A DNA stretch of 64,000 nucleotides from Antedon mediterranea (lineage: Eukaryota; Animalia; Echinodermata), in contig NC_092670.1 of the NCBI RefSeq assembly GCF_964355755.1, positions 3,276,201 through 3,340,200 on the forward strand. The letters are read 5' to 3'. Positions 1-43,370 of the stretch are shown one piece after another. Each line of letters begins with the position of its first letter. Within the stretch, counting starts at the first letter, position 1. A program made the translations under genes and the position numbers. The notes under the pieces were generated by a model. That model was not told where the DNA came from and searched no databases. It saw only the letters and a list, made by a program, of their open reading frames with translations.

Positions 1-5
1 CTTAC

Positions 6-168
6 CCTTTCCTTAGCAAAGCATTGATAGTAGAAGTTTTTCCTACTCCCTCAAGACCTACAAAAATAACTCTGCCTTGCTTAACTTCAGCTTTCCCTTC
101 TTCCAGGGCTTCATTATATGCTTTAATTGCTTCTGGTCCTCGAGCCTGTATCTCCACAGGAGTTAAGT
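6..168 (-). CDS. Exon encoding the start of a ROC (Roco-family) GTPase domain; gene continues beyond the window
   Basis: Translation LTPVEIQARGPEAIKAYNEALEEGKAEVKQGRVIFVGLEGVGKTSTINALLRKG has the pre-ROC helix seen in invertebrate Roco proteins, then a beta strand and P-loop GxxxxGKTS. Acceptor ttttcaag at 169-170 (phase 1); donor GG/gtaag at 5-4. Confidence 0.85.
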
Positions 169-1047
169 CTTGAAAATAAAACTTATTAAAATTAGTACAC
201 AATCAATGTAATTTACCAAATAGGGCATTCCACAGTATTTGGTCCGTGGGTTGAACAATTGTATTTACTGATTTTGATATAACTCTATCCATTTCTCAAA
301 GTAGAAGTTTATTAAATAACATTTTTTTTTATTTTTCTGATATATAGTTTCTAAGTTATTGAATATTATGAAAAACCATATTTCAATCAATCAATTCAAT
401 CAATCAATCAATTTCACGGACAGGACATTTTAAAATTCTATTTATTTCATAAACTATGCATCTTATTACTGTTTTATCAACAGATATAGTTACTTTATGT
501 CTCAATAATACATAATTCAAGTATTTAATTAAAATGTTGTTGTTTATTAATTCCATACATGTATTTCAAATTCATAAATGTCCACGACGTTTTAAGCAGT
601 TTTTTTACATTTATTTTAATGATGCCAAAAATCTTGATATTTCATTTTCTCCTGAGGACTATCATTAGATTATTAACACATTTGTTAAAAATGTTATATT
701 TTGATGAAAGTATCAGATTAAAAAAATATATTGTTACAGACGGGACATTTTTGTTATGGACGAGACATACAGTATCATTTAAATCCTAATTATTTCACAA
801 ACCATGAATCTTTTAAACATTTTTTTGCCAGATAGGCCTATAGTTACTCAATGTCCCTATTGTACATGGTAAAGGATTTTATAAGACATATTGTGTTTAT
901 TAAATTTCATATATGCATTTAAAAATTCATAATTGTCCCGTCCTTGCATAGTTTTGTGGTGTTTTTTACATTTCAGTTAAAAGTATTAATACCACAATTT
1001 ATATTTTTGTTTTCTCCTTTTAAGAACTATATGTAATACATTATAAA

Positions 1048-1225
1048 TCCAAAGGCAAATTACTGAGAAAAATGACAATGCTGTGGGTATCAGTGGCTGG
1101 ATCTCAATGGAGATAAAAAAAAAAAAAAAAAAAAAAAAAGCGAAAAGCTAAATCAAAACGATAAAGTAAACAGCCAGAAAAGTTAGCAGAGCTTTCGGGC
1201 AACACTAGCCCTTCATCAGTGCATT
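1048..1225 (-). mobile_element. 178-bp Penelope pLTR/retrozyme-like insertion
   Basis: Flanked by a 16-bp direct repeat tgtaatacattataaa (1032-1047 and 1226-1241). Contains a long A tract and a minimal hammerhead motif. Confidence 0.7.
1186..1222 (-). ncRNA. Minimal type I hammerhead ribozyme
   Basis: Minus strand reads GCA-CUGAUGA-A-GGGC-uaguguu-GCCC-GAAA-GC-UC-UGC: conserved core, 4-bp stem II, palindromic AGCU stem III, 3-bp stem I. Predicted cleavage after CUC (between 1189 and 1188). Confidence 0.75.
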
Positions 1226-2593
1226 TGTAATACATTATAAACAAATATTTTGAAACTATCATATTTAAAAAAAATATATTGATGACATTTTTCGTAGGAA
1301 CTTAACGGGACAGACATTTTTGTTACGGATGGGACATATTATTTAAAAATATTTTATTTTATGCATCTTGTTAACATTTTTTCCCATACATATACTATAC
1401 TATTACTTTTTATTTTACAGTAAGCTCCAATTGTTCATAATCAAGTATTTTATTAAAATTGTTTATTAATTTCATACTTGCATTTAAAAATGCATAATTG
1501 TTAATTCTGAGACATTTTGATTAGGTTTTTCCTCACTTTTCCTCAATTATTGAAGTAATGGCTAGAATCTAAGACCACAGCGTTGATAGTCATTTTGTGT
1601 TACTTTTTGGTAACTTTATAGAACAAAACTGTAATACAAGTTGCAAAATGGCATTGGAATCATTCACTAGAGCGTTAAAATTATAGATTAGGTTAAAAAA
1701 TATCAAATTGCGTGTGATGCATGCAGGTATGCATGGCAGGCCTTTTAAATTATTAGAATCGACTTATTTATTTATACCATTTAAAGACGAAAACATTATA
1801 GGCCCTAGTATTTATTTTTACATATAATGCAGTTTGTGACCTTATTAGATCGTTAAAATGCATACGAATGCTATTAAATAAGTACAATACTCAAAAGCCC
1901 CTTTCTCACAGAGCTGTGTGCCAGGAATATACCATTACCATGCCGGTATGGTTTTCTGTGAGAACGGGTCGTCTTGGCATCATGCCGGCATCGACATGAC
2001 CTGCTTTAGACCTAGTAATATTACTAGGGATATTCCCCACAATGCCAGACGGGCATTCTGTGAGAACGTAACGCCGTTACATTCCGGGGTTATATTTAAT
2101 TCCCGTCGAGGCTTTGACACCTTGCGCGGTCAAGTGTATCACTTTGGCGCCGATTCATTCAATTAACAATAATAATGTCGAACTGGAGGAATAAGAGAGC
2201 TGCTTAAAATAAGGGGACAAGAAGAAATTTGTAGCATTAGGCCATAGCTCTTTGTTGGTGCCTGACCCTTCGTCGCCTTGTAAATTTTACAGCCTTCTAA
2301 GGTGTTTTACAGATTGCCGATGAGATGACGGCTATTTAATTGCTGTACCTGTATAATATATGCACAATATACTGTACATAGCATGTATTGCATAGATATG
2401 CTATAAAGGAAGATAATAATCTGTAACTTAAAATTCGCCGCCATATATTGCTAGACAAAAATAATAACAATAAAGCACGCTCTCAATAATTATTTGAATA
2501 TGCCCGACTCTTTTCTCACAGAAAGCCGGTATATACCGGTTACATTTCCGGTGTAAGATTGAATTGTGTCCAGCATTCAAAAGTGTCCGGGTG

Positions 2594-4533
2594 GCGATTT
2601 TTTTTTCGTACATAAGTTGGGGACCCCCCTCATGAAACGTCACAAAATAAACATGAATAATTCATCAGTTAAATTTTCTTGTTCCGTGTGCACCCAAGCG
2701 TATAGCAACAAGAAGTGATTACACAAGTGCGGTACGATTCTAGGCCTATCTCCGCTGTTGTTGCGGCGTGCGATTTCATTGAAGAATAGCGGCGTTTTGT
2801 GTGGATTGTGGAACTAATCAGCCTTTAGTTTATGGTGTTTTTAATATAATTTATTACTAAAGAATTACGTGTTAAAATTATAGTTTCTATTAATACTATA
2901 GGCCTAATTAGTAGTCTCTAAACCCATGTCTATTCTAGTAGTAGCTGTGTGGGTGTGTGTGACGTGTGTGTGTTAGGTATGACACAATCCGAGTAATAAG
3001 TCAGCAAAATTAAACATTAAACATTACACAAAAATACATTTTTTATTCTCGTGGGTCTAATCTTCCCATCTCATGTGTTCATATACGCGCATTTTTAAAG
3101 TTCTTTTGAATTCATGCATATTGTTTGATAATAAAATAGCAGAATTAAAAAAATACTGTACACAAATTATACACATTCTTTATTCTTGTGGGTCTAAGCT
3201 TTTTTTGGGCTATGTCCAATGAATTACTACTTAGTTTAATGTCTTGCCTAGCTGTCGATTAGCCTCGACTCGACACATTTTGTGTGAAGAATAGTGCGCG
3301 AAGGCAATCATGTGAATTGACTTCAGTTAACAAGGACTCTGTCCATGATAGAATCACTACTTAAAGAAAATTGCGAACCAGATGTTTTAAAAACTTACAT
3401 TATCAAGGCAGAGGAACAGTTCAGAAAAGTTGAGTTAAAACACTCTGAACTGATTGATGTAATTGAAGACCAGGGAGAATTTGAAACGGAAGAGAAATGG
3501 ATGTTAGAATGTGAGATGGATTTCCTTCAAAAGTTGGTATGTGCAAAACGGGAGATTACCCTGCGCCACTCACAATCTACAGTCGATGTACCATTTTCAA
3601 CTCCAACAACTCCTCTTCAAACATCAGCCTCAACGCAGCCTGCTGGTACGGTTGCCTCGCCGCCTGCATTCAGTTCACCTACACCTCGACCTGCTATGGC
3701 AAGGTCAACGCCTACCATGGCAAAGATGAAGTATCCTACATTTAATGGCAACATCCGGGATTACAAAAGATTTATAGAATTATTTACACATTGTGCAACT
3801 AATCTAACTGAGATTGAATGTTTCTACCAGCTAACTGAATCTATGATTAACAGCAAAGAAAGAAACATGGTTAAAGAAGGATGTATCGATGTGGCTAGAG
3901 CTTGGGAAGTGTTAGATGAACGCTACGGAGACAAAGACAGAGTGGTTGATAGTCTGTTGAAGGATCTAGAGAATTTAAAGTCCTATGAAAGTAAGGACAA
4001 GATCAACATTCCAGCCATGAGTCGTTTTGTCCAAACCCTTCAAACGTTTGAAACCAGAGCGGAAACCATTGGTTTATCTGGAGAATTGAACAGCAAAATC
4101 ATGCTGAGCCAAATAAAACAGAAGTTACCAGAAGAACACAGAATAGCTTACTATAAAAGCGTTAGGGACAACGACACAGGTCATTCTCTCACTGGCTTGG
4201 TTAAATGGCTGTACAGCCAATTATTGTTACTTGAGAAAGCTATGCCCATGACTGAAACTGAATCATCTTCATCGTCAAAAAAGGCTTCAAATGCTGCTGT
4301 AGTGTCATCTGCAGAAGGATACAAGTCAGACTACAATAAAAATCCCTAGATTAGAATCCTAGGCCTACTGTAGAAAGAATCGTATCGCAGTTGTTCGTGT
4401 AATCACTTCTTGTTGCTATTGGCCTACGCTTGGGTGCACACGGAACAACAAATTTAACTGATAATTATTCATGTTTATTTTGTGACGTTTCATGAGGGGG
4501 ACCCCAACTTATGTACGAAAAAAAAAAATCGCG
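2594..4533. mobile_element. Non-autonomous TIR element (family X, copy 1) carrying a BEL gag fragment
   Basis: TIRs of about 150 bp (gcgattttt..cgtacataagttggggacccc...). Imperfect 8-9 bp TSD tccgggtg(g)/ttcgggtg(g). Other copies at 34482-37469 and 37470-39495; a TIR tip at about 46793-46865. Confidence 0.75.
3322..4349 (+). pseudogene. BEL/Pao gag (capsid-region) fragment, open frame, truncated at both ends
   Basis: ORF 3345-4349 has YPTFNGNIRDYKRF, AWEVLDERYG and IKQKLP motifs typical of BEL/Pao gag. The stop is created by the junction with family-X sequence. No LTRs, zinc knuckles or pol. Confidence 0.75.
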
Positions 4534-4784
4534 TTCGGGTGGACACTTTTCAGCATTGGATAGTGTCCAGTTGCATGTTTCAACGGGTTCGTGGGCGTTT
4601 TTCAACAATTTAATGCTGTCCGGCCCGTTTAATAATGTCTGACCCATGGATTGAAATGCGTCCACTATTAAATACTGTATCATACGTTTTATGATAGGTG
4701 GTTGTTTTTATCACGCCTGCACTTGTCTTGTCTTCTTTTAATAACAAATAATACTTAATGATGCCAAACTAATTTTTTTTTCTA

Positions 4785-6255
4785 ATTAAAGATCGCTTTG
4801 CCTAAACACCTCCAATTAGGGACCATTATATTATTTGGTATGTGAAAAGACAAGAAGAATAAATAATTGTTAAGTATGTGACAAAAACAAGTAAATGAAG
4901 TGGTCCTCTTCCAATTAAAAATCACTTTACCTAAAACACCTCCAATTAGCGACCATTATATTATTTAGTATTAATAAAGCAAGAAGAATATATAGTTATT
5001 AATTATGTGACAAAAAACAAGTAATTGTACTGGTCCTCTTTCAATAAAGGACCACTTTACTTAAAACACCTCCAATTAGCGACCATTTTATTAATTGGTA
5101 TGAGTAAAGACAATAATAATTAATAGTTTTAATTATGTGACAAAATTAAGTAACTGTACTGACTGGTCCGCTTCCAATTAAAGATCACTTTACTTTAAGA
5201 CACCTCTAATTAGTGACCATTTTTATTAATTGGTATGAGTAAAGGCAAGAATAATTAATAGTTTAATTATGTGACAAAATTAAGTAAATGTACTGGTCCG
5301 CTTCCAATTAAAGGTCACTTTACTTTAAGACACCTCTAATTAGCGACCATTTTATTAATTGGTAGGAGTAAATACAAGAAGAATACATAGTTTTAATTAT
5401 GATAGTGACAAAATTAAGTAACTGTACTAGTCCTCTTCCAGTTATAGATCACTTTACTTAAAGAAACCTCCAATTAGCGACCATTATATTATTTAGTATG
5501 AATAAAGACAAAAAGAATACATAGTTTTAATTTTGTGATAAAAACAAGTAATATTGTACTGGTCCTCTTCCATTAAAAACCACTTTACTTATAGACACCT
5601 CCAATTAGTGACCATTTTATTAATTGGTATGAGTAAAGACAATAATAATTAATAGTTTTAATTATGTGACAAAATTAAGTAACTGTACTGGTCCGCTTCC
5701 AATTAAAGATCACTTTACTTTAAGACACCTCTAATTAGTGACCATTTTTATTAATTGGTATGAGTAAAGGCAAGAATAATTAATAGTTTAATTATGTGAC
5801 AAAATTAAGTAAATGTACTGGTCCTCTTCCAATTAAAGATCACTTCAGTTTAAGACACTTCCAATTAGCGACCGTTATATTATTTTGTATGAATAAAGAC
5901 AAGAAGAGGAAATAGTTTATAATCATGTGATAAAAAACAAGTAATTGTACTGGTCCTCTTCCAATTAAAGATCACTTCAATTTAAACACTTCCATTTAGC
6001 GACCGTTTTATTATTTTGTATGAGTACAGACAAGATGAATAAATAGTTTATAATCATCTGTGATAAAAAACAAGTAATTGTACTGGTCCTCTTCCAATTA
6101 AAGATCACTTTACTTTAAGACACTTCCAATTAGCGACCGTTTTATTATTTTGTATGAGCACAGACAAGAGGAATAAATAGTTTATAATCATGTTATAAAA
6201 AACAAGTAATTGTACTGGTCCTCTTCCAATTAAAGATCACTTTACTGTAAGACAG
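4785..6255. repeat. Tandem array, unit about 120-130 bp, about 12 copies
   Basis: Recurring tggtcctcttccaattaaagatcactttact..acacctccaattagcgaccatt units. Confidence 0.9.
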
Positions 6256-6271
6256 ACACGACTAAAAGGTG

Positions 6272-6345
6272 AAATAATAATAACAAATAATAATAACAGG
6301 ATTTTTATAGCGCACATACCACTCAAGAGTGCTCAAGGCGCATTT
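6272..6345 (-). mobile_element. 3' tail fragment of an L2/CR1-group LINE
   Basis: (aat)n tract next to tttatagcgc...gctcaaggcgc stem-loop. The same motif recurs at 59730. Confidence 0.45.
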
Positions 6346-8367
6346 AAAAAAAAAATTTATAAAAACAAATCATACAACTCTCCCGGTCCCGAGAGCCGCT
6401 GTTTTGAGGTTGACCTGACAATTGTGGCAATTACCAATTGGGACATTACCCTTGCTGGACATCTGGTAAAAATAAATACTGATTATGCTGCCACTTTAGT
6501 ACACAAAACGATAAATAAAAAAAAATAATACAACTTGTAGCATTCCCTTTAAACTAATACAGTAGGCCCTGTTCAAAACTGCTAGTGTAGAAAAGTCAAA
6601 TCCACCAATATAATAAAACCTAGAACTAGCTAATGATGTAGAAACACCAACAGCTTATTTATTAAATAAAAATTAACATTATACTAATGTACAACTCAAC
6701 AGGTAATGTAGTAACGAAAATTGCCTCACAGCTAATGTAGTTAATATCGCCAGCTAATAAAATATTATATATTTTACAAACCTAAAATGTCTAAATCGTG
6801 TGCAAATGTATTTCTCTACTTGCCTTCAGTCTATCCACCTCTCGTAAGTGATCGGCTTTCAAAACTTAGCACTCTGATCGTAAGCAACCACCCTTGTTAG
6901 CGACCACCTTTAATATTTAAAAGGGACTACCTCTGTTAAAGGACCGCTTCTCACAATGGACAACCTCCTGAAAGGGTAACCACCTCTCATAACGGACTGC
7001 TTTTCATAAACTACCACCGCTCGTAGACGACCACTTCTTTTACCGACTACACCTCCCGTAAGTGACCACCTCAATAGAGGTGGTAATTTGCGAAAGGTGG
7101 TCGTTACGGAATTATGAGAAGTGGTCCCTTAGGAGAGGTGGACGGTTTTTTTTTTTAGATTATTCGAAAAAAACAAAAAACCGAAATACCCTTGAGTGAA
7201 CGAATAATTATGATGCGCAATTAAGGTGTTTATTTTGCCATATAAAATATAAAAAAATAAATATTTTTTGGTAATATGCATCAACAATATTTTTCAAATG
7301 TATTTTAGATAAATAAATAAATAATGTAAAATCTCTAGAAACAAAAAAAATATTGTGACTAACCAATTCAATGTTTTATTAAATAAAACCAAAAATCAGG
7401 CATCTGTGAAAAAAAATATAATGAAAAAGAACTCACGTTAACAATAGCGAACTTACTTGTTTAAAGCACTTTTGTTATCAGTTAATATTATTAAATTAGT
7501 AACAGTATTATGAATATTACAAAATAATATTTTGAGAACTGAAAAATATTTTGAGGGAACAAATATATTTAGGGAGAACAAAATAAGATTTCAAGAACTG
7601 AACAATATAAAAAACGAATTACTACTTCGAGACAAGGAATGATCGAGAGAACGAAATAATTTCGAGGGAAATTATTTCGTTCTCTCGCGAATTAGTAATT
7701 CGAATTCCAATGAAATAATATTTCGAGAGAACGAAAATAGGTAGGCCCTATGCCTATATGATTTAGTGATATTCATTCCCTAGAAATAATAATACAGTAC
7801 CGGTAGGCTATATATTTTTTCAAGTTGTCGATTTACTTCAAATTGACAACAGGTTGTTACTCAATCAAAAACAAACAATTTAATTTGATTAGACTATATG
7901 TCTCCAGATATAATAATAGTAATATTTATTTCAATCGACTTGATATTTTGCGATTAAAGTTGGTATTCTAAGGAATTATAATTACCCTAACGGGAGTTGG
8001 TGAACGTCCAGTGCCCTAGTTTTTACGGGGTTAATATGATGTCGATGTCGATGGTCCTACTTTTTTATCGATGAAAGCTGCCCGGGTGGTTGCAGCCATT
8101 TTCAACAGCTGGTATTACACTATTCAATGCTGAAAATTATCCAGTGGACACTTTCAAACACCGGACACATTTAAATCTTACACTGGCACGATAGTCCGAT
8201 GAGAATGGGTATATGCCGGTAACGATACCGGTACGACGCCAGCATAATATACCGGTATATTGCAGGCACATCTGTGAGAAAGGGGCTAAAGTGAATTTGA
8301 AACACAATGTTGACTTACATATTGCAATAACAGAAAATTCACTTGAAAAAAAAATTAAAAAACATAC

Positions 8368-8409
8368 TTTCTGTATTGCTTGATGGTCCAGCTTCACTTC
8401 TTGATTGTT
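8368..8409 (-). CDS. 42-nt linker micro-exon (EQSRSEAGPSSNTE)
   Basis: aaattag acceptor and gtatgt donor, phase 1-1, open frame continuing from the tDED exon across a 168-nt intron. Confidence 0.7.
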
Positions 8410-8577
8410 CTAATTTTAGTACAGTATTACAACATCCGTTTTGATGAATATAAAATTATAAAGCCTTTTATCAATAATATAATTTGTTTCCCTAAAACCA
8501 TTCTACTACAGACCTATATCAAGTTATTTTTTGGATTTTTGCTGTATTTATGAATGAGCTTATACTGCTTTTTTTAC

Positions 8578-9132
8578 CTTTTAATGTTGTCAATGCCTCC
8601 ACTTCTTTCATCATCTTTCTATCTGTAAGCAGTTTAATGAATTTGTCCATCTTCTCTCCTTTTGCAAGTGTGCCTTTCATTTCCAGTTTCAAGATTAACC
8701 AAAACGGATCTGTGTCTTTGTTGACCTCCTTAATGCCTTTAAGGCGGCCAATAGTTACCATGTTCTCTGTATTCAATTGCTGACCAAACGCTATCAATTT
8801 TCTTCGATGCTCTGAAAAATGTCTGAATGGAACGGATTTGAAGTTTGGTAATTTCACAATTTTCGTAATCACGTCTTGAACTCCCTGAAGTCCGCATATA
8901 TTAGTAGCTTCAATGAGGATACCGATGTCTGCCGGTTTGAGAAGTCCAGGACCCTCAAGTAGACCAAGCAGATGATATGGTGTACTTTCACTCTCTATTT
9001 TTTTCAAAGTAATGTTTGTATCATGATTCGTGAACTCGTTAAGTAACACTCTCAGCATGTGAATGTTTCCACGTTTCTTCCACCAAGTAGATACATCAGT
9101 GAGCAGTTCATTGTAATCGTCATCATTCAATT
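8578..9132 (-). CDS. Exon encoding a second tandem DED-like (death-fold) module, 185 codons
   Basis: ttgttag acceptor and G/gtaaaa donor, phase 1-1. Pattern YNELLTDVS..LLGLLEGPGLLKPADIGILIE then FSEHRRKLIAFGQQL..LILKLEMKGTL parallels exon 42562-43071. Confidence 0.75.
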
Positions 9133-9879
9133 CTAACAATAGTAATAATACAAGTTATTAATAATAATATCATTACGTGTTAAAGAGTCAAAACTGTATA
9201 ATATGTGGATTTATTGATTTTGTATTCTAATATTCTTTTTTGTTATGTATATAGTATGTCCTTTTTTTTTGGCTAAGGATTGATATTTGACATTTATTTA
9301 TTTGTTCTTTCTTTAAACTGAAATATACTTTCAATTCAAATTTACTGATTTACAAAGTGGTTCAGTGAATACACCATATAGTAACAAATATAAAAATTAA
9401 AAAGAAAAAGGCGGATGAATGTAAGAAAAAGTTAGGTATATATAATATATATTTCCCTAAGTGAAGATTTGGAAGTAGTAAAGGACTTATTATGAAGTTC
9501 AAATTGTAATCGTTATCATTCGAATCTAATAATTAAAGAATACGATTTATTAATAATAATATCATTACGTGTTAAAGAGTCAAAACTGTACCATATAATA
9601 ATAATTTATTGATTTTATATTTATTCTGACATTCTATTAAGGAATTTGACCTTATTGATTAAAAAGTATTTTAACAAAATAGGGAAAAGTGACAACCAAC
9701 TAAACTACTACCAAAAGTTAAGACTGAAAGAGCAAAGATATTCACCACCAACTTCTGAGTTTTCAACCAATGGTAGGAAATCTTTATTTATTTTTTCGGT
9801 GCTCACTTTTCCATTTTAATTGTTTTACATATTTGGATGTTTTTTTTATGTAATAAAATATTCTGACTGCCGAGGATTG

Positions 9880-10520
9880 CAATTTCGGCGTGAATCAGTG
9901 GAGCGGGATGTGGAAGCTGAAGGAGAGCAAAATGTGGATGACCGAAAAACATGCGCATCATCCACAGTTCGTAACTCTTCTAAGAGAGAGAGAGTTTAAA
10001 GCCTTAGAATTCTTCAGTTTCATTGACGCTGGTGTTCGAGTGCGGAGCTCAGTGCCATACCTTTGCTTAACCAACTTAGGAAGGCCTTTGTGGATGAGAG
10101 AGAGCCAGGTAAGAACTACCAAATTTTCCAACGAGGGCGAGTTCTTCGTCCTCCTGTGTTTGGGCATCATGGTGGGAAATGCCCCCGTCTTGACGTAGTA
10201 AGTTATCATGGACGAAAGCAACTAAGCGCTGATAGAGATCTTCCGGTCGTTCATTATCTTGTAAATGTATATCAGCAAAATCAATAAAATGGGCGCCGGT
10301 TGACTGGAATCCATAATGAAGTTGGATAGTTTGCCAAATTTGTGAAAAAGTGAGGAGGAGCTTTTAACAATGGTATTCCGGGAAATTATAGGGCAAAAAT
10401 TAGCGATCTGACCGAGCATGAGTTCAAGGATAGTGAGTTTTTGTTGGGCGGTATGACGACGTGCAACAGGTACCTCATCATTGTCGTGAGTTAAGCCGCG
10501 AAGGGGAGATGCCCTGGTTT
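9880..10520 (-). pseudogene. Degenerate LTR-retrotransposon gag-like remnant
   Basis: Frameshifted pieces MLGQIANFCPIISRNTIVKSS, GFQSTGAHFIDF and [34 protein letters not shown] resemble an invertebrate Gypsy-type gag. Multiple stops and frameshifts. Confidence 0.55.
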
Positions 10521-12514
10521 TGGGACGCCAAATTGAACCATCTAGGAGAAATGGGGTTGGTAAGTATACACTTTTAGATGCAAGTTAGGCCGAATACTCA
10601 ATAAAACTCAATGGACACACTGATCGAGACTGATTCCGTCTCGATATCTATTTATCCCTTTCTCTCTAGAGGGCAGTATCACATTGCTGCGATATTACAT
10701 CCCTCTCCACCTTGTTTAGTCTCTATAAATTATTTGATTTAAAAGGTATTTGTTTTGCAAGTACTAAAATGCTGAGATAAAAGGATTACTCAAGTACATA
10801 AAACGTAATCCTGTTGTGGTGTAGCCAATTTGCCTAAATTAGAAAACGATTAAAAATTGACAACTAAAACATTTGTTTCCTTTATCTATAGTAGTAGCTA
10901 CATTAGATCAACTTTCGTATGCACTTAGAGGTCCAGAGAATTTGACTTCAGAAATTGGTTTAGAATGGTCAAACAATCATTTTTGGCTTGGTTACACATT
11001 TTGAAAATGTGGCAAAAGGTCAGGGTGAAAGGTTTAATACCAAACACCAATAGGTCCTTAAACCTCGACAACCACTGGTCACAGCAAGGTAATTTTGGTC
11101 TCAAATTGATCAGAAGGTATACAATTATATTTAGTCTAATGGGACATTTTAGTGAAAAATTACCGAAAATGCCATTTCTGACCTTTGACCCATTTCCCAT
11201 GTATGTATCTCCGTAACTAAACTGTTTGTAGACACTTAAATTGCAATATACATATTATTTGTTGCACATTTTGAAAAATGTTACAAACGGTCAAAGGGTC
11301 AGGTCAAGGGTTATATGAACAAACACAAATAAGGTACTTGTATCTCGGCAACCACTGGTCGCAGCAAGTCAATTTTAGTCTCAAAATGTTGAGAAGGCAT
11401 GCATTCATATTCAGTCTAATGGGACATTATAGTAAAAAATGATCAGAAATGCCATTTCTGATCTTTGACCCACATACCAGGGCATGCAAGTACTGGTCGT
11501 AGGAACTTAAATTTGGTATCAATATGTTGGAAATATACATATTTACATTCATTCTAACAGAAAATTTGGTGAAAAGATGATCAGAAATACTATTAATTAC
11601 TAATGTTTCAAACAAAAAACATCCCTCTACACAACTTATTCTTATATAAATGTTATGCAATAACTGATGCTTTTTAAAGCATTTAAAAATGGTTTCATCT
11701 ATATATAAATTTACGTAAGGGCAAAATTCGGTAAATCGCGCCTTACTTCTAGAATTTTTACTCGATGGTATATAAAGTTGGTTCGTACTTTCGGTACTGA
11801 TTTTAACCACCTGATGTAACCCTGTTTACTAAGTAAATTGAGTTAGATAATTAGTTATTGACGATTAAAACGAATTTAGGTTCAACGATTTGCCCCAAAT
11901 AGGGGTGTTTTCCGATCGTGGTATACACTGTCTAATGGATGTCCATCTTGAAAAATACCCGCCACAAAAATGCGAGGAGGCTTCGCATTTTCCTATCTCC
12001 TCCTACGATAATTGTTTTTAATAGCTGAAAACCGGTTGAACAGCTAGAGTACACCATCATAATGTTGAAGACAGGCCGATTTTCTTAAAAAAATACTATT
12101 TTGATAGATTTAATATATGATTATACAAATGTATTGATTTGCGATGAATGGAACATCCCAATCTCTCAGTCTGCCAGAGTTTGGTTTAACACAAGTAGGT
12201 AAATTTATGAGCCCTTGGTTTAACACATACGGTAGGTAAATATATGGGCCCTTTGAGAATAAACTTGCAATACTTTGACAATACTGTAAATACCTATTAA
12301 CTATTTTTAGTCCTCATTTGAATCGAACATTTCTTACTGTGAATGTTCGTACTGTTAGATGTAATATAAAAATATATACAGATAAACTTTATTACTGAGA
12401 TTGTGGTTAGGATCTACTGTTAGATATATAAACACATTATTATATACAAATACACTTTATACTGACAGTTCCTTCTCAACGTTTGTATTAATTAATAATT
12501 ACCAATAAAATAAA

Positions 12515-16640: not shown

Positions 16641-16703
16641 CAATTTCTGATTTAGCCGTTTTTCGTCTTCCTTGTTCTTCATTGCTACTGGTTGCCACTT
16701 GCC
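16641..16703 (-). CDS. 63-nt linker micro-exon (GQVATSSNEEQGRRKTAKSEI)
   Basis: ttaaacag acceptor and G/gttagt donor, phase 1-1, open frame, purine-rich, in unique non-TE sequence. Composition resembles the 42-nt exon. Confidence 0.65.
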
Positions 16704-26964: not shown

Positions 26965-27630
26965 ATGGATGCTGCATCTATGATAAGTGGGGCATCTTCG
27001 TCGTCTTCTTCGTCTGCCAGAGTTAGGGCATCAGCCAAGAAGGCAGCTATTAAAGTAAGATTAGCTAGGCTGCAGGAGATGGAGAAGACTGAAGCTGAAG
27101 AGTTAAGAGTTAAACAAAAGAAGAATAGAATTGAGCAGGAGACATTACTAGCTAAAGCAGAAGCAGAAGCAGAAGCTGAAGTTTATGAGGCCTTTGATAC
27201 AGGTAATGATTTAAATGGAGTAGGTGATTTACCTGCATCTGATGTATGGTGGCATCAAACAAGCATCCTCGATAAGCCGATTAATGATGATGCCACAGAA
27301 GCATTACTTCCTGATATAAGTCAAAGTACTCCACAAGATTCAAGAGCACCAATTACAGAATTGTTTACTTCCTTTTCCCAATTGGAAGGTATAAGTACAG
27401 AGAAATCACAAGAGCCAACACCAGTATGGCCTCAAAAGAAGAATGATGGTAAGGTTTCTGATAAACGTACAGAGCCACTTCATCAGAAACCAAAAGAGAA
27501 AATAAAACATTATATACCAATAGTTGAACACCAGAGTGACGTAATTAAGCAAGAGGCACCAGTGACGATTGCAAATGAATGTGACCTTGTGCATCGAAAA
27601 CAGCATTGGGCTGGATCCCATGGAGCATAG
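26965..27630 (+). pseudogene. N-terminal part of BEL gag, cut by the internal deletion
   Basis: SSSSSARVRASAKKAAIKVRLARLQEMEK..EAEAEAEVY coiled segment. No capsid motif or zinc knuckles follow. Confidence 0.65.
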
Positions 27631-30600
27631 TAAGACAGGGGTGACAGCTAATATAAAACCTGTAAGCAGAGTTCAGTTGCAAGCCATTCAAGAATATGAA
27701 CAGTTTAACAACATGGTAAAAGATTCTGTTAATATTGATTTCCCAGATAGAGCAACAGAGTTCGTAGGATTGTCCGTGGAAGACAGATCGTTTATGGAAA
27801 TGATGGATGGTGCGAGCAGTTTTGTGGACGGACATTATGTGTTACCTCTACCATGGCGAAGCCAGGGTACAGTCTTGCCGGATAATAGATGTTTGGCTAT
27901 GAAACGTTTTAATTCATTGGAAAGGAGATTTGAACGTGATCTTGAATTAAGAAAGATGTATAACAAAGCTGTAAATCAAATGGTAGAGAAAGGATACATG
28001 GAAGAAGTTATTAAGTCAAACACACCCGAAAGGAAAATGATATGGTACATACACCATCATCCTATATCCAACGAACGAAAGCCAGGAAAGATCAGAGTGG
28101 TCTTCGACTGTGCAGCAAAATGTAACGGTGTATCTCTGAACGATGTCCTTCTACAGGGGCCGGACCTAACCAATAGTCTAATTGGTGTGTTAATGAGGTT
28201 CCGGGAAGACCATGTAGCAGTAATGGCAGACATTGAAGGCATGTTTTTACAGGTAGTGGTTCCAGAGGAGGATCGAGATTCTTTAAGATTTTACTGGCGA
28301 CCCAGCGAAGAAGAGGATGTTAAAACTTACCGCATGACAAGACATTTGTTTGGAGCAACATCTTCACCAGCTTGTGCAAATAAAGCATTACTTAACACTG
28401 CAGCAGACAAGGGATCAAAGTATTGCCCAGAAGCAGCGGAGACCATGAAAAACAATTTTTATGTTGATGATTGTTTAGTGTCGGTGAAAGATCATAAGAA
28501 GGCCCTGACATTAGTCAAAGACCTAACATTAGTCAAAGACCTAACATTACTTTGTGAAGAAGGTGGATTCCGCTTAACTAAGTGGATGAGCAATGACAAG
28601 AGAGTCTTGAATGTAATTCCCAAGGAAGATCACGCACCGGAGGTTAAAAATCTAGACCTACGGAAAGATAAACTGCCATCGGGAAGAGCACTTGGTATAC
28701 AATGGTCTCCAGAACTTGACACTCTTAGATTTACTATATTACCAGCAGATAAAAGTCATACCAGACGAGGGGTGCTGTCAATTGTTAGCTCTGTATTTGA
28801 CCCACTTGGGTTAGTGGCTCCTTTTGTTTTACCGGCAAAGATTCTACTACAAGATATCTGTCAGAAGGGTCTTGAATGGGACGAGCCCATTGACGATGTG
28901 TCATTGCAACGATGGAAACGGTGGTTGCAAGACCTGGCGAGACTGGATGAGTGGAGTGTACCGAGGTGCTACAAATCTGAATTACCAACAGATGTCATTA
29001 GTCGCCAATTGCATGTGTTTGCTGATGCAAGCAACTATGGGTATGGTATGGCAGCTTATATCAGACAGGAGTCAAGTGATGGTCATGTACAAATGTCCCT
29101 GGTCATGGGTAGAAGCAGAGTTGCACCCTTGAAATACACTTCAATTCCAAGATTAGAATTAACAGCAGCAGTTATGGCTTCACGGTTAGCCAACACAATT
29201 ATTTCAGAGTTAAGTGGTATAGATAACGTTTTCTATTGGACAGATAGCCAAACCGTTTTGAAATATATACATAACACCTCTCGAAGATTCAAAGCCTTTG
29301 TAGCAAATCGAGTTTCTATCATTTTGAACATATCTAAGGCATCAGAATGGAGGTATGTTAGAACTTGTAATAACCCGGCTGATGAAGCATCGAGAGATCA
29401 ACGGATTGAGGAATTTCTAAGTAACACTAGATGGCGTAACGGACCAGAATTCCTCAGAGATAAATGTGAGCAGTGGATAGACTTACAAGCCAAGTCCTTA
29501 CCTCTTATCGCCGAGGATGACCCAGAAATCAAAGGGGTATCAAATGTATTAGTTCCAGCTTGTACTTCATGTTGTTTCTTAGATGATCTAATTACTAAGC
29601 ATTCATCTTATGGAAAAATTAAAAGAATTGTGGCATGGTTACTGGTTGCTGTTGAGAAACTATGCAAAAGGGTCACCAGTAAGCAACTAGGCAATGTTAG
29701 GTTGCAACACCTGAGATCAGCGGAATGTACAATTCTTGCACACGAACAGAGAGTTCATTTTAAACAGGAGTTAGAGGTACTTAAGAATCGTAATGACGAA
29801 TCTATTGGACGGGTGATGAGAAATAGCCCTCTTAAGAAACTTGATCCGTTGTTGTTAAATGGAATGATTACAGTGGGAGGAAGACTGAACAAAGCGTCTC
29901 TTCCCGACAAGATAAAGCATCCAGTAGTAGTACACAAGAATTCTCTTATTGCAAGATTAATCATAGTGGAAATACACAAAGAGGTTGGACACCTTGGTAG
30001 AAGTGCTATTTTATCACAACTTTGGCAAAGGTATTGGATCATTGGAGCAAGTTCCTTGATCAGAAGTGTTATAAGCAGATGTGTAGTTTGTCAGAAGCAC
30101 CGAGCTAGAGCTAGTGAACAGAAGATGGCATCACTGCCACCAGATAGAATTGTGAGCGATCATCCACCGTTCCACAATACGGGTATTGATCTATTTGGTC
30201 CATTTGAAATCAAATTAGGTCGTAGTCTTGTGAAGAGATATGGTGTTATTTTCACATGTTTATCTACCCGTGCCATTCACCTAGAAATGGCATATTCATT
30301 AACTACAAGCTCGTTCATCAATACTTTGAGAAGATTTATTGCCCGAAGAGGCCAAATCAAGAAACTTAGATCGGATAATGGTACAAATTTTGTGGGAGCC
30401 GACAAAGAGTTAAAGAAGGAGATTTCAGAATGGAACACTCAAGTCATACATATGTACTTGCAGCAAAGAGATATTGAATGGGAATTCAACCCTCCTGGAG
30501 CGTCTCATTTTGGTGGCGTCTGGGAACGCATGATACGAACTGTGCGCCAGGTTATGAAAGGAGTACTTAAAGAACAGAACCTGAAAATGGATGATGAGGG

Positions 30601-31087
30601 TCTCCAGACATTATTTTGCGAAGTGGAAATGATTGTAAACAATAGGCCAATAACTACCTTGTCAACCGATCCAAATGATTTTCGACCATTGACATCAGCC
30701 ATGTTGTTGACACAACGTGAACAATTGCCATTACCACCTGGTGTATTTGACAAACGTGATATTTATGCTCGTCGTTATTGGCGTCAAGTCCAATATTTGA
30801 GTAATCTTTTTTGGCAGAGATGGAGGAAGGAATATCTGCCTACTATGCAAGAGCGTCAGAAGTGGTTTAATCCTAAACGCAACTTGGAAATTGGAGATAT
30901 TGTGCTGGTAGTGGATAACAGTTTACCTAGGAACAGTTGGTTGCTTGGGCGGATAGTGGAGTCTAAAAGGGATAACAATGGACTTGTTAGATCATGCACA
31001 GTAAAAACTCAATTTTCCACCTTGAATCGTCCTATTGCAAAATTGTGTCTACTCGTAAAGGCAACTGAAGAATCAGGGGCAGAATAA
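27569..31087 (+). CDS. pol: BEL/Pao pol: RT, RNase H, integrase (protease missing)
   Basis: KIRVVFDCAAK, ADIEGMFLQV, FYVDD (RT); LHVFADAS, SIPRLEL, WTDS (RNase H); H..H..CVVC, GIDLFGP, SDNGTNF, GGVWERMI (integrase). Short in-frame duplication KDLTLV-KDLTLL. Confidence 0.93.
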   Translation: MQMNVTLCIENSIGLDPMEHSKTGVTANIKPVSRVQLQAIQEYEQFNNMVKDSVNIDFPDRATEFVGLSVEDRSFMEMMDGASSFVDGHYVLPLPWRSQGTVLPDNRCLAMKRFNSLERRFERDLELRKMYNKAVNQMVEKGYMEEVIKSNTPERKMIWYIHHHPISNERKPGKIRVVFDCAAKCNGVSLNDVLLQGPDLTNSLIGVLMRFREDHVAVMADIEGMFLQVVVPEEDRDSLRFYWRPSEEEDVKTYRMTRHLFGATSSPACANKALLNTAADKGSKYCPEAAETMKNNFYVDDCLVSVKDHKKALTLVKDLTLVKDLTLLCEEGGFRLTKWMSNDKRVLNVIPKEDHAPEVKNLDLRKDKLPSGRALGIQWSPELDTLRFTILPADKSHTRRGVLSIVSSVFDPLGLVAPFVLPAKILLQDICQKGLEWDEPIDDVSLQRWKRWLQDLARLDEWSVPRCYKSELPTDVISRQLHVFADASNYGYGMAAYIRQESSDGHVQMSLVMGRSRVAPLKYTSIPRLELTAAVMASRLANTIISELSGIDNVFYWTDSQTVLKYIHNTSRRFKAFVANRVSIILNISKASEWRYVRTCNNPADEASRDQRIEEFLSNTRWRNGPEFLRDKCEQWIDLQAKSLPLIAEDDPEIKGVSNVLVPACTSCCFLDDLITKHSSYGKIKRIVAWLLVAVEKLCKRVTSKQLGNVRLQHLRSAECTILAHEQRVHFKQELEVLKNRNDESIGRVMRNSPLKKLDPLLLNGMITVGGRLNKASLPDKIKHPVVVHKNSLIARLIIVEIHKEVGHLGRSAILSQLWQRYWIIGASSLIRSVISRCVVCQKHRARASEQKMASLPPDRIVSDHPPFHNTGIDLFGPFEIKLGRSLVKRYGVIFTCLSTRAIHLEMAYSLTTSSFINTLRRFIARRGQIKKLRSDNGTNFVGADKELKKEISEWNTQVIHMYLQQRDIEWEFNPPGASHFGGVWERMIRTVRQVMKGVLKEQNLKMDDEGLQTLFCEVEMIVNNRPITTLSTDPNDFRPLTSAMLLTQREQLPLPPGVFDKRDIYARRYWRQVQYLSNLFWQRWRKEYLPTMQERQKWFNPKRNLEIGDIVLVVDNSLPRNSWLLGRIVESKRDNNGLVRSCTVKTQFSTLNRPIAKLCLLVKATEESGAE

Positions 31088-31293
31088 ACCCATATGGCTA
31101 TGACCGGAGGGGCAGTCTACCCCCAAGGATGGTCAAATTGAATAATAAGCAACTATTATGCAGATCAAAGAGGACTTTATAATCGAAATTTAACAATGTT
31201 ATTATAGACAAGGTTTAAACTGTTTATATCTGTATAATCATGGTTTTAATCATTAGAGCTAAGTAATTGTAATGTATTAAATTAAGGGGCCGG

Positions 31294-32000
31294 TATAGCG
31301 TTCCCATTGAACTGAGCTAGTGAGGGCGCTAGGCTGGTTGTCTTGGAGAAGTATCATGGCGGCCTTCATGTATGCAGCGTGGTTGTGCCTTGCCCTTTAG
31401 TCAAGTTTGTTAAAGATATTATTTAGAAATTGTAGATTCGTAAAGGTTTTCTATTGAGCCACAAAACTTCGGTGAGCTTTGGAGTTATAATTATATTATC
31501 TTGTTATTGAATGTTAATGTTATTAGTTGAATTTTGTAAGCCTAGCTAAAGTAATAGCCCTAAATTACAGCCTACGACGGCGTGTTACTGTTGTTTACAG
31601 TACTGTGTTTTGCTAGTGCAGAGATTAGGGCCTAGTTGTGACGGGTCCATTTGATTATTGTATGTTGTTTGAATAATAATACTGTATAAGGAAATTGCTA
31701 TACTTAATGTATATTGTATTGATAAGGACTTAGAATTATTAATTTGTTGATGTTGCTAAAGCACGGGTGCTGCCCAAATTTTCATTGATTGATGTTTAAT
31801 TATTGTTTTCTCGTATTTAGTGAATCCCTTCCTCGAGATACGAAGTGACAGCGATATTGTATGCATGTTAAGAGCAAGATAATCAGGATTAAAGTTATAT
31901 TTTGTTTCTCTCAACCAAGTTTGTCCTGTTTGTTTGTATCATACTTGCGATTGATTCCGTTGGTGGCGCTCTATAGTTTTAAGAAATTACGAACTCTACA
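31294..32000 (+). repeat. 3' LTR of the BEL element (707 bp)
   Basis: tatagcgttccc...gaactctaca, preceded by the PPT and followed by TSD atgcg. Confidence 0.92.
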
Positions 32001-32649: not shown

Positions 32650-34480
32650 GTTTGTGCAGTGCTGGTATCACACCCGGTTTGGCAAGGCAGCACGTAGGTC
32701 GCCATGCAGTTTCCCAACTTCGGAAAACTCCAAAGCCGGCGAATAACTGCGACGAATTCGTTCGGCACCGTTTCTGATAGTCGCTTATTTCACATTTATG
32801 ATAGAGATACTGGACTAACATTTTTAGTAGATACGGGAGCCGAGATTAGCGTCCTTGCGAAAAAGTGACTGTTTTGCAAGCAGTTTTAAAACAACTTTCA
32901 AATCAACACGTATGGTGAACGATCTTTAACACTTGATTTTGGTTTTAGACGGACATGCAGATGGGTGTTTACTATAGCCGATGTTCCTTCAGCAATTATA
33001 GACGCAGACTTTCTGCAACATTTTGGTTTGTTGGTCGATGTTAAACACCGCAAGTTAATTGATTCTACTACTAATTTAAGTGTGCAGGGTACTGCATCTA
33101 AGCTCTGCTCGCTTAGTCCTGGTTTGCCTCGACATGTGATTGATTCACGTTATGAATCAATACTAGGCAAATACTTCCCCAAAATCACACGTCCGAGTTT
33201 CAAAGAGGCCAAACTAAAGCATGTCACTCATTTTTTTTTTTTATCTTATGTGGGTTCATCCCACTTTTATTTCCATGTCACTCATTGTATAACTACCAAA
33301 GGTCCATCGATCGCTGCCCGACCTCGGAGATTGGCTCCACAGAAACTTAAAATCGCACGAGCTGAGTTTGACCATATGCTTCAGCTGGGCATTATTCAAC
33401 CGTCAAAAAGTTGCTGGTCATCGCCGCTTCACATGGTTGCAAAGCAAATAGAAGGTGATTGGAGACCACGTGGAGACTACAGAGCCCTCAATAATGCTAC
33501 AGTTCCGGATAGATATCCAATCCCTCATATTCACTATTTCACAGCTACGCTTCAGGGAAAGAAAGTTTTCTCTAATATTGACCTGGTACGAGCCTACCAC
33601 CAGACACCAGTTGCACTAGAAGATGTGCCGAAAACCGCAATAACGACATCATTTGGGATGTTCGAATTTTGAAGAATGCCGTTTGGACTTAGAAACGCAG
33701 CACAGACATTCCAGCGGTTCATCGATAAAGTTTTACGTGGTTTGGATTTTGTATACGCATACATCGACGATCTTCTCATAGCCAGCAGTGACGAACAAGA
33801 ACACGAAATTCACCTCAAGTTGTTATTCGACCGTCTTGAAGAATTTGGTATTTTAGTTAATCCTGTCAAATGTGAATGGGGAGTTTCGTCTTTGACATTT
33901 CTGGGACATCATATCGACGACATGGGTATCCGACCACTACGTTCCAAGATAGAAGCTATCGAAACATTTCCTGTACCCGACACAGTCCGTAAACTGCATG
34001 AATTCTTAGGATTAATCAACTTCTACAGGCGTTTTATTCCTCGATGTTCAGATATAGTTCATCCGTTGACTGATTTACTGGCAGGTAAACCTCGAAAATC
34101 AATTACATTACCACCGACGGCGATAACGGCCTTTGAGGCTGTTAAGGTAGCACTTGCAGAGGCAACTTATTTGGAGCATCCCGATTCATCCGCCACATTA
34201 TGTTTAATGGTTGATGCATCTAACTTTGCGGTTGGTGGTGTGCTACAACAGATGGTAAAAGACGTCTGGCATCCTATCGCATTCTTCTCGCGCAGAATGA
34301 ATCCAGCTGAAAGAAGGTACAGCACATTCGGACGAGAACTGTTAGCCGCTTACCTTGCTATCCGACATTTTCGTCATTTGCTTGAAGCAAGAGAATTTTT
34401 CATCCTTACAGATCACAAACCGCTCACAATTGCACTGAAAGCAAGCTCCGACCGCTACTCACCTCGAGAGATTCGTCACC
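32650..34480 (+). pseudogene. Ty3/Gypsy gag end, protease, RT and RNase H, decayed
   Basis: CWYHTRFG (gag end), FLVDTGAEISV (protease, about 32820), DYRALN, MPFGLRNA, YIDD (RT), VDAS, RELLA, TDHKPL (RNase H). In-frame TGA at 33670-33672 and upstream frameshifts. Confidence 0.9.
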
Positions 34481-34621
34481 GTAATAATCACTTGTTGTTG
34501 CTATACGCTTGGGTACGATACGATTCTTTCCTAGGCCTAGGATTCACGTGATTGCCTTGGCGCACTCTTCACACACACACACTACCACTATGCAAAATGT
34601 GTCGACAGCTAGGCAAGACAC

Positions 34622-42103: not shown

Positions 42104-42561
42104 CCTAGGATACTTCCAGCTCTCGACATCGTTTGACTGCTACAATACTCCATTACCGTATTCTAAATAGGGTAAGTAAAGACCGAATTACTTATTCCCT
42201 AAAAAACACAGGTTCTCGTTAGATTACCAGAAGTAAAGCAATTGGTTGGGATGGGCCTGGTTGCGTTTGGAAATACCGTCTGGAAATATGGCGCCGGATG
42301 CTGTTATAGACCAGTGGTGGAATGATGGGAATCGATAGCTAGGATAGGTATGAGTTTGACCATATCTGTACCATGCTGATTGTTGTGTCATTAGGCAAGA
42401 TACTTTACTCTCAATGCCTTGTTCTAATCTAATTCTCAGTTACGCTTGGGATGATAATAACTAGGCATACTACCTTTAATGTGGATGTTTTACACATATA
42501 TGCTATTATTATAATCTTCTAATTAATTATTTGTTTGCTATAATTCGTTCCTGTTACATAC

Positions 42562-43071
42562 CTTGTGTCAGGCATCTTATCGTTGATGCCAGTCCAATTT
42601 TGTTAAGAATGTTAATAAACTCTTCTTGTCTTTCTTCACAAAGTATTTGTCTTTGTTCCAAGTCTATAATCATACTCCAAGAGTCTTCATAATTCTTTAA
42701 AGGATTGTTGTAGAGTGCATCAATTTTCTTAACAGCAGCCTTTCGTAGTTGGTTTCCAAAATCTGCAATCCAGTGTCGATATGGGGTGAAATTTATAATT
42801 TGTATTTCTTGAACTTCAAAGAAAGATTGTTGGAAAACTTTGATAGCTCCAAACGTTTGGGTTAATTTTATCGTTTCATAAAGTAACTCCAGATTGCCTG
42901 GGGATAAACGTCCTGTTTTCCTCAATGCATTCAGTAGATCTATCGTTGTGTTGGCTTTGTCTCTGTCTGCTACTGAAATTAAATCGTGGTATAAAACCTT
43001 CAGCTGTCTGACGAGGTTGTTTTTATCATACCATTTAGAAAAGTTCATCAAGTCCACATTAAAATCTATTT
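42562..43071 (-). CDS. Exon encoding the first tandem DED-like module, 170 codons
   Basis: tatttttag acceptor and G/gtatgt donor, phase 1-1. LKVLYHDLI..DLLNALRKTGRLSPGNLELLYE then FTPYRHWIADFGNQL..MIIDLEQRQIL matches the DED1/DED2 pattern of caspase-8-type prodomains by eye. Confidence 0.78.
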
Positions 43072-43167
43072 CTAAAAATATAAAAAGTGGGAAAGAGAGA
43101 AGATTTGAGAAAACATTTTAAAAATTGTCAACGATGCAATACGAAAACACCATTTATTGTTTGTTAC

Positions 43168-43370
43168 CTGCCATGATATCAATTCAGTTTTCTATCTTCA
43201 TTTCTTAAAAGCAAAACTGTTGTTTTACAATAAATGCTGTCAAACCATGCCAGTGTGCTTTTCAGACTACCTCTCCTTTTAAGTTACGTATTATGTTCCT
43301 CTACTTCTGCCTTAAAAAGTTCCCTCTGCTAATCAACAGTTAAAATATTCATTTTCTTCTCAATGGTTAG
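43168..43370 (-). CDS. 5' UTR exon ending in the start codon (ATG GCA G; coding 43168-43174)
   Basis: ccttaacag acceptor; ATC ATG G Kozak context; in-frame TGA a few codons upstream; CAG/gtaac donor, phase 1, in frame with the next exon (MAEIDFNVDLM). Confidence 0.7.

What the first reader, a model, noticed from the sequence alone, without database searches (positions are those of the whole stretch)
6..43370. Modular tDED-tDED-ROC gene: candidate death-fold-coupled Roco GTPase immune or cell-death switch
Seen: six minus-strand exons splice in frame to give M-A-[tandem DED-like]-linker-[tandem DED-like]-linker-ROC P-loop. Established: tandem DEDs of caspase-8/10 and cFLIP nucleate filaments with FADD; ROC-COR is a GTP-regulated dimerisation module; the characterised animal Roco proteins (LRRK1/2, DAPK1, MFHAS1) lack N-terminal DEDs. 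Inference: four N-terminal DED-like folds on a ROC GTPase parallel NLR architecture (death fold plus NTPase) and could form a GTP-gated platform recruiting FADD or caspase-8. This is my best candidate for an uncharacterised system here. The C-terminal part lies outside the window.
Basis: partly seen in the sequence, partly recalled or inferred. Interest (0 to 1): 0.85.

Follow-up and report, generated by a model that had tools for sequence, protein, structure and literature searches.

The report
Feather-star Roco GTPase with borrowed DEDs
Six in-frame exons in a likely feather-star genome place two tandem death-effector modules, one near-identical to the front end of NLR immune receptors, ahead of the start of a Roco GTPase, likely making a GTP-gated relay in a lineage that has plugged the same module into many immune proteins, though splicing into one transcript is not shown.

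Summary
The six exons exist, are in frame and have GT-AG ends. Both large exons fold as caspase-8/cFLIP-type tandem DEDs, and exon 6 is 89-94% identical to the ROC start of feather-star Roco proteins. The locus is a mosaic. Exons 1-3 match the front of tDED-NACHT-LRR NLRs (93%). Exons 4-5 match the tDED and linker at the tail of a ROC-COR protein (88%, 100%). It is not a singleton: 6 of 37 Roco-type relatives carry N-terminal tDEDs, drawn from several tDED clades, and the same module sits on NLRs, RIG-I, Rel, TIR, kinase and caspase proteins of two crinoids. All joins are phase 1, so frame fit does not prove one transcript; only a paralog's exon 1-2 join was seen in reads. The DED2 FL motif used for caspase-8 chains is absent, so vertebrate-style chain elongation is doubtful. 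Close complete relatives keep a C-terminal tDED and swap the N-terminus, so the front DEDs are more likely input than output. Death-fold Rocos are in print (Trichoplax); I found no paper on DED-Rocos. The scan noted Roc-COR-DED genes elsewhere in this genome.

The parts
43168..43370 (-). Exon 1: 5' UTR plus start (Met-Ala, phase-1 donor); has its own acceptor, so further non-coding exons may lie upstream
   Evidence: a paralogous start exon is spliced to an exon-2-like sequence in run X1; relatives begin MAT/MAA/MAE
42562..43071 (-). Exon 2: tandem DED, NLR type (alternative acceptor 6 nt downstream, exon start 43065)
   Evidence: 93% and 92% identical to the N-termini of NLRs P0001 and P0002; fold; tree
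16641..16703 (-). Exon 3: 63-nt linker, phase 1-1
   Evidence: 85% identical over 20 residues to the linker that precedes NACHT in NLR P0006
8578..9132 (-). Exon 4: tandem DED, Roco type
   Evidence: 88% to the C-terminal and 85% to the N-terminal tDED of ROC-COR protein P0011, 87% to P0012; fold
8368..8409 (-). Exon 5: 42-nt linker, phase 1-1; may be skipped
   Evidence: 13 of 13 residues identical to the linker after the C-terminal tDED of P0011; P0011 and P0012 join their N-terminal tDED straight to ROC
6..168 (-). Exon 6: pre-ROC helix and P-loop (G1) of a Roc domain; the gene continues beyond the window
   Evidence: 94% to P0081 and P0012, 89% to P0011; P0011 has Roc and COR-A above Pfam cut-offs and matches solved bacterial/archaeal Roco chains 3dpu and 4wnr

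Best explanation
The locus holds an NLR-type start, tandem-DED and linker block, a Roco-type tandem-DED and linker block and the first ROC exon in one frame, likely joined by phase-1 exon shuffling into a young (tDED)2-ROC-COR gene whose front DEDs likely act as the input of a GTP-gated relay. Shown: exon anatomy, folds, the two different origins of the blocks, and relatives with 1-4 tDEDs before ROC. Inferred: the gene continues into ROC-COR and a C-terminal tDED as its closest complete relatives do; the N-terminal tDEDs dock by DED-DED contact onto assemblies of other crinoid tDED proteins (first of all the NLRs whose tDED exon 2 copies); docking shifts the nucleotide-dependent monomer-dimer cycle of ROC-COR (established for a bacterial Roco, PMC5714945); and the C-terminal death fold passes the signal to tDED-bearing effectors such as the two-tDED caspase P0079, TIR or kinase proteins. 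The contacts would not use the vertebrate DED2 FL motif.
For: Exon 2 groups with NLRs P0001/P0002 (support 100) and exon 4 with Roco tDEDs (97) in a 155-module FastTree. Of 37 held proteins with a ROC or COR match, 6 have N-terminal tDEDs (P0011, P0012, P0026, P0057, P0060, P0081) and 16 C-terminal ones (the set was gathered by tDED or ROC-COR similarity, so it is not a census). P0026 and P0057 (Anneissia) have two tDEDs before ROC; P0060 has an exon-2-clade tDED with a start Met directly on ROC-COR-tDED. N-terminal Roco tDEDs need at least 5 label changes forced by well-supported branches, so the fusion recurs. The five closest ROC starts have different fronts (four tDEDs, one tDED twice, an NLR fragment, TAZ+KIX), while the three of them that are complete all end in a tDED. 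Bacterial ROC-COR conflict proteins have the same polarity, sensor in front and variable effector behind (PMC8195603, passages). No NACHT, LRR, COR or other family exon was found elsewhere in the window with 143 query proteins (4 noise-level hits), so exons 1-3 have no NLR body here and exon 4 no upstream ROC-COR. Exons 2 and 4 are free of stops and frameshifts. In run X1 a contig covers 42562-43067 and continues into a start exon without intron 1, and another stops matching at the exon 4 acceptor with 112 further letters.
Against: No read links exon 2 to 3, 3 to 4, or 4/5 to 6. The X1 transcript is a paralog (26 differences in 506 letters) whose residues match the NLR type at 6 of the 10 positions where the window copy differs from both P0001 and P0002, so it does not show that this copy is expressed. 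Those 10 private changes (against 1 and 4 in P0001 and P0002) could be decay; pN/pS against the X1 differences is about 0.43, p 0.07, from 25 listed sites. Exon 4 plus 5 best matches the tail of a Roco gene, so it may be a leftover gene end. All relatives are predicted NCBI models, which can fuse neighbours in tandem clusters; P0081 includes a linker that matches a repeat-like stretch of this window and P0115 starts with an NLR fragment. No relative has this exact NLR-type plus Roco-type pair before ROC. Input versus output rests on architecture alone.
Confidence: 0.42

Rival explanations
1. One reading: one transcript, but the four N-terminal DEDs are the output. ROC-COR dimerisation clusters them and seeds a DED assembly that recruits a caspase, as an NLR does.
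For: Exon 2 is the N-terminal signalling-position domain of NLRs P0001/P0002. A crinoid caspase carries two modules of the same tDED family (P0079). DED-NACHT receptors were proposed to engage caspases directly in amphioxus (PMC2575513, passages).
Against: No sensor domain is left at the N-terminus. Close complete relatives already have a C-terminal tDED. The DED2 FL motif is missing, although the crinoid caspase lacks it too, so a family-specific surface could replace it.
Confidence: 0.18
2. Not one working gene: exons 1-3 are an orphaned NLR front end and exons 4-6 are the tail of one Roco gene and the head of the next, left side by side in a rearranging gene cluster.
For: The blocks have different origins. 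Phase-1 symmetry makes frame fit automatic. Exon 4 plus 5 equals the tail of P0011. Intron 2 is 25.9 kb and holds a recent BEL/Pao element (LTRs 99% alike). Exon 2 has 10 private amino-acid changes. The nearest relatives of both blocks are listed with the same longest-contig length, 38,962,182, as expected for mixed clusters on one chromosome.
Against: All six exons are intact, ordered and on one strand with GT-AG ends. No other start exon for exon 4 and no second linker or terminal exon after exon 5 was found. Multi-tDED-ROC models occur in two genera.
Confidence: 0.25
3. Exons 1-4(5) encode a four-DED-only adaptor or decoy, like a doubled cFLIP-S, ending by read-through after exon 4 or 5; the ROC exon belongs to a separate gene.
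For: DED-only proteins with an exon-2-side module followed by an exon-4-side module exist in both genera (P0014, P0017, P0020, P0021). Read-through after exon 4 or 5 gives short tails ending in stops.
Against: Exon 4's closest relatives P0011 and P0012 both join a near-identical tDED to this ROC exon. Exon 6 has no other upstream coding exon between 169 and 8367.
Confidence: 0.15

Closest known systems
Trichoplax Roco proteins with CARD and death domains (Civiero et al. 2014, PMC4104024; passages seen, figure not seen)
   Same: ROC-COR surrounded by death-fold domains in an expanded invertebrate family of unknown function.
   Different: Here the death fold is a tandem DED, repeated, and shared with NLRs of the same lineage; no DED is named in that paper's text (0 occurrences).
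DAPK1 (kinase-ankyrin-ROC-COR-death domain; PMC6337361, passages; ankyrin part recalled)
   Same: Animal Roco with a death fold after COR, as in the closest complete relatives here.
   Different: No kinase in the window or in P0011; tDED rather than DD; tDEDs also in front of ROC.
Bacterial LRR-AP-GTPase-COR conflict proteins (Kaur et al. 2021, PMC8195603; passages)
   Same: ROC-COR as an NTP switch equivalent to NACHT, with a front sensor slot and a rear effector slot.
   Different: Front slot holds tDEDs, not LRRs; animal, intron-based shuffling.
Brown-algal ROCO candidate immune receptors (Teng et al. 2024, PMC11378527; passages and one supplement searched)
   Same: Exon shuffling diversifies the region in front of ROC-COR; the paper notes N-terminal death, TIR, kinase and helicase domains in other organisms.
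   Different: Whole interaction modules are shuffled here, not single LRRs. Its Figure 2 (about forty animal architectures) was not visible to me and could include a DED form.
Caspase-8 and cFLIP tandem DEDs (Hughes et al. 2016, PMC4819448; passages)
   Same: Same two-DED fold (TM up to 0.83; Z 17).
   Different: 12-21% identity in the structure matches, DED2 FL motif absent, one exon per tandem pair, attached to a GTPase.
DED-NACHT receptors of amphioxus, sea urchin and Nematostella (PMC2575513) and DED-RLRs of lophotrochozoans (PMC8998645); passages
   Same: Death folds grafted onto immune NTPases by domain shuffling.
   Different: Single crinoid tDED module family spread over NLR, RLR, Rel, TIR, kinase, caspase and Roco proteins; the Roco fusion is not described there in the passages seen.

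Membership tests
Roco (ROC-COR) GTPases | Roc domain P-loop (G1) with the family's pre-ROC helix | tested here: met
   Exon 6 holds GxxxxGKT and is 89-94% identical to P0011, P0012, P0081; alone it gives only weak P-loop Pfam hits, Roc E 0.097.
Roco (ROC-COR) GTPases | Remaining G motifs (G3, G4) and a COR domain directly after Roc | tested here: inconclusive
   Outside the window, no genome held. Present in P0011: WDFGGQ, THLN, Roc 45.8 and COR-A 48.6 bits above cut-offs. P0012, 94% identical in exon 6, is a truncated model without COR.
Roco (ROC-COR) GTPases | GTP binding, hydrolysis and nucleotide-dependent dimer cycle | not testable with these tools
   Shown for a bacterial Roco only (PMC5714945, abstract).
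Tandem DED (caspase-8/cFLIP type) | Two DED folds packed as in caspase-8/cFLIP | tested here: met
   Exon 2: Foldseek E 8e-5, TM 0.80-0.83. Exon 4: best Foldseek E 5e-3, TM 0.69; VIA Z 17.0, rmsd 2.8, 168 aligned, against 6.2 for the best non-DED row.
Tandem DED (caspase-8/cFLIP type) | Exposed DED2 FL motif (caspase-8 F122/L123, cFLIP F114/L115) for chain assembly | tested here: not met
   Position mapped through the cFLIP sequence alignment: A-L in exon 2, R-L in exon 4; F in 5 of 155 modules. DED1 keeps a hydrophobic V-L (V in 119, L in 130 of 155).
Tandem DED (caspase-8/cFLIP type) | RxDL charge-triad motif (recalled, not from a call) | tested here: not met
   Pattern present in 4 of 155 modules; absent from the exon 2 and exon 4 translations.
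Tandem DED (caspase-8/cFLIP type) | Binds FADD or a caspase prodomain; forms filaments | not testable with these tools
   Needs binding or filament assays.
NLR (death fold-NACHT-repeat) | NACHT domain after the death fold | tested here: not met
   No NACHT or LRR match in the window with NLR queries; only the tDED and the pre-NACHT linker match.

The most novel reading that the evidence does not exclude
Feather stars have rewired innate immunity around one portable tandem-DED exon, used as a common plug on NLRs, RIG-I, Rel, TIR, kinase, ubiquitin-system and caspase proteins, with an interaction surface unlike the vertebrate FL motif. This gene is a freshly built GTP-gated DED-to-DED switch that captured an NLR's own tDED and so reads NLR activation (or baits DED-targeting pathogen proteins) and relays it through ROC-COR: a helper class of Roco not yet described in animals.
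Probability: 0.25. Interest if true: 0.8.

Novelty: new variant of a known kind. Interest (0 to 1): 0.55.

Why it matters
If expressed as one protein, it is a recent, traceable swap of a signalling module between NLR and Roco genes in one animal lineage, which makes the proposal that ROC-COR works as an NLR-like immune switch directly testable. The wider family shows a tandem DED that has lost the caspase-8 chain motif yet is reused on at least a dozen protein types, raising the question of how DED specificity is coded. If it is a cluster remnant, it is an ordinary by-product of birth and death in immune gene clusters.

Tried and rejected
No whole genome is held, so the gene could not be extended to COR. 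The run search listed no holder on record as RNA; X2, X4 and X5 cover introns like DNA, and X1 behaves as spliced RNA at exon 2 but also has depth in all 30 bins of 1-12000. The 112 letters upstream of exon 4 in one X1 contig were not displayed and both lay calls are spent, so that junction is unread. De novo splice-site scans missed exon 3; it was found by homology. The complex prediction of exon 2 with exon 4 gave no answer (median 0.36, one control 0.46). The Atlas search gave DED clusters at 0.90-0.93 but recognition 2261, under the tool's 2300 mark, so it is not counted. Sequence searches of the PDB gave only weak cFLIP hits (E 0.012-0.036). Considered and rejected: a FADD-like DED+DD reading of the large exons (whole-length match to tandem DEDs); a non-ROC GTPase; a hidden NACHT between exons 3 and 4. 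Searches for a paper on DED-Roco proteins or crinoid tDED expansion found none; the library is open-access only, figures are not held, and older Roco surveys in subscription journals were not searchable. Look-ups of earlier findings by sequence and near this place were empty. The tree is FastTree only, with a long-branch warning that does not involve the window's rows; no AU test was run.
Full report
Observation. The window is AT-rich, intron-rich animal DNA. All have AG/GT ends and all five joins are phase 1, giving 446 codons. The gene runs off the left end and no genome is held.

Death folds. Exon 2 hits Pfam DED at E 1.3e-8, just under the curated cut-off; exon 4 hits nothing. The two are 24% identical. 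Models from 39-sequence alignments have pLDDT 94. Exon 2 matches caspase-8 tandem DEDs at TM 0.80-0.83, E 8e-5. Exon 4 gives no Foldseek match under E 0.001 (best 5e-3, cFLIP) but Z 17.0, rmsd 2.8 over 168 residues to caspase-8 tDED, with the top nine rows all tandem DEDs and the best non-DED row at 6.2. Both are tandem DEDs. The exposed DED2 FL motif needed for caspase-8 chain growth (PMC4819448, passages), mapped through the cFLIP alignment, reads A-L in exon 2 and R-L in exon 4; F occurs in 5 of 155 family modules and is absent from the crinoid caspase P0079 too.

GTPase. Exon 6 is 94% identical to P0081 and P0012 and 89% to P0011. P0011 has Roc and COR-A above Pfam cut-offs and matches the solved Roco chains 3dpu and 4wnr. 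So exon 6 begins a Roc domain; COR is inferred from relatives.

Origin of the blocks. All close relatives are from the feather stars Antedon mediterranea and Anneissia japonica (30 of 30 proteins looked up, chosen by architecture; 73 of the 103 representatives remain unnamed). Exon 2 is 93% and 92% identical to the N-termini of tDED-NACHT-LRR proteins P0001 and P0002 and about 65% to tDED-membrane-fibrinogen proteins. Exon 3 matches the linker before NACHT in NLR P0006. Exon 4 is 88% identical to the C-terminal tDED of P0011 (tDED-ROC-COR-tDED) and exon 5 is identical over 13 residues to the linker behind it; P0011 and P0012 join their N-terminal tDED straight to ROC, without exon 5. A tree of 155 modules puts exon 2 with the NLRs (100) and exon 4 with Roco tDEDs (97). 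With 143 query proteins nothing else of these families was found in the window. The locus is therefore a mosaic of an NLR front, a Roco tail unit and a Roco head.

The family. A full HMMER scan with exon 4 gave 103 representatives. Pfam scans of 81 of them and my own profile give 111 proteins with a full tDED: 22 NLR-type, 17 Roco-type, 5 TIR, 3 fibrinogen, 2 NHL, one each of caspase, RIG-I, Rel, kinase, USP, ubiquitin, HEPN, ENTH, TPR, B-box and LRR, and 51 unassigned; 34 have two or more modules. Of 37 proteins with a ROC or COR match, 6 have N-terminal and 16 C-terminal tDEDs. P0026 and P0057 have two tDEDs before ROC, P0081 four, P0060 one of the exon 2 clade. N-terminal Roco tDEDs are scattered over the tree (6 changes, 5 forced by well-supported branches). 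These are predicted models and some may be fusions of neighbours (P0081 linker; P0115 NLR fragment).

Expression. No run is on record as RNA. In X1 a 533-letter contig covers 42562-43067 and continues with 27 letters that read as a start exon, with no depth over intron 1: a spliced exon 1-2 join, but of a paralog with 26 differences and NLR-type residues at 6 of the 10 positions private to the window. Another X1 contig matches exon 4 from 8720 to the acceptor and has 112 more letters that were not displayed. No later join was seen. Because all modules are phase 1-1, frame fit is no evidence of one transcript. Differences to X1 give pN/pS of about 0.43, p 0.07, from 25 sites inside exon 2 taken from the 40 of 58 rows shown: inconclusive.

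How it most likely works. The five closest ROC starts have variable fronts (tDEDs, TAZ+KIX in P0125, an NLR fragment) while the three complete ones end in a tDED; more distant crinoid, scallop and Nematostella relatives mostly carry death domains, at the C-terminus where positions were read. Bacterial ROC-COR conflict proteins have sensors in front and effectors behind (PMC8195603, passages). I therefore read the front tDEDs as input: they would dock on DED assemblies, most simply those of the NLRs from which exon 2 was copied, shift the nucleotide-dependent monomer-dimer cycle known from a bacterial Roco (PMC5714945, abstract), and let a C-terminal tDED recruit a tDED-bearing caspase, TIR or kinase protein. 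Every step after the anatomy is inference. An earlier unreviewed note on a CBP-domain Roco in this genome prompted the front-slot reading; I confirmed that architecture only in P0125. Confidence 0.42; rivals are a non-functional cluster remnant (0.25), front DEDs as output (0.18) and a DED-only adaptor (0.15).

Known and new. Roco proteins with CARD and death domains are described in Trichoplax (PMC4104024, passages); N-terminal death domains and about forty animal architectures are mentioned in PMC11378527 (passages; figure not seen; its one held supplement has no DED entry); DAPK1 has a C-terminal death domain (PMC6337361, passages); DED-NACHT and DED-RLR grafts are known (PMC2575513; PMC8998645). 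Seven searches found no paper on tandem-DED Roco proteins or on the crinoid tDED expansion. The scan has earlier notes on ankyrin- and CBP-fronted Roc-COR-DED genes elsewhere in this genome. Verdict: a real, new variant of a known kind; interest 0.55.

Noticed in passing
proteins P0070, P0092, P0079, P0025, P0027, P0105, P0112, P0003-P0005 (relatives, not in the window): The same crinoid tDED sits on a RIG-I helicase in place of CARDs, on a Rel/NF-kB-domain protein, a caspase (two modules), a kinase, TIR proteins, a ubiquitin protease, ENTH, and a predicted membrane protein with an outer fibrinogen domain. The last looks like a one-chain lectin-type receptor with a cytosolic tDED; the membrane segment is read from the sequence, not predicted by a tool.
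   Followed up: partly
window 26654-32000 +: BEL/Pao LTR retrotransposon in intron 2, antisense to the gene, with a 1173-aa pol frame and LTRs 99% identical over 281 nt, so recent.
   Followed up: partly
window 48986-53788 +: LINE with long open frames upstream of the gene: ORF1 with PHD, GDSL esterase and zinc knuckle, ORF2 with endonuclease and reverse transcriptase.
   Followed up: no
window 3321-4349 + and 32890-34551 +: BEL-type gag frame (DUF1759) in intron 5 and a broken gypsy-like pol remnant in intron 2.
   Followed up: no
window 9496-9590 -: An 87.5% copy of the exon 4 acceptor region and first codons, about 390 nt upstream of exon 4; could serve as a decoy acceptor.
   Followed up: no
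window 43065-43071 -: Two in-frame acceptors 6 nt apart for exon 2; P0001 fits the upstream one, P0002 and the X1 contig the downstream one.
   Followed up: partly
window 4780-6254, 23446-24379, 56997-58313: Tandem arrays with periods 130, 299 and 49.
   Followed up: no
window 46653-46706 +: A short repeat-like stretch matches the linker between the tDEDs of P0081, suggesting an exonised repeat or a modelling artefact in that protein.
   Followed up: partly
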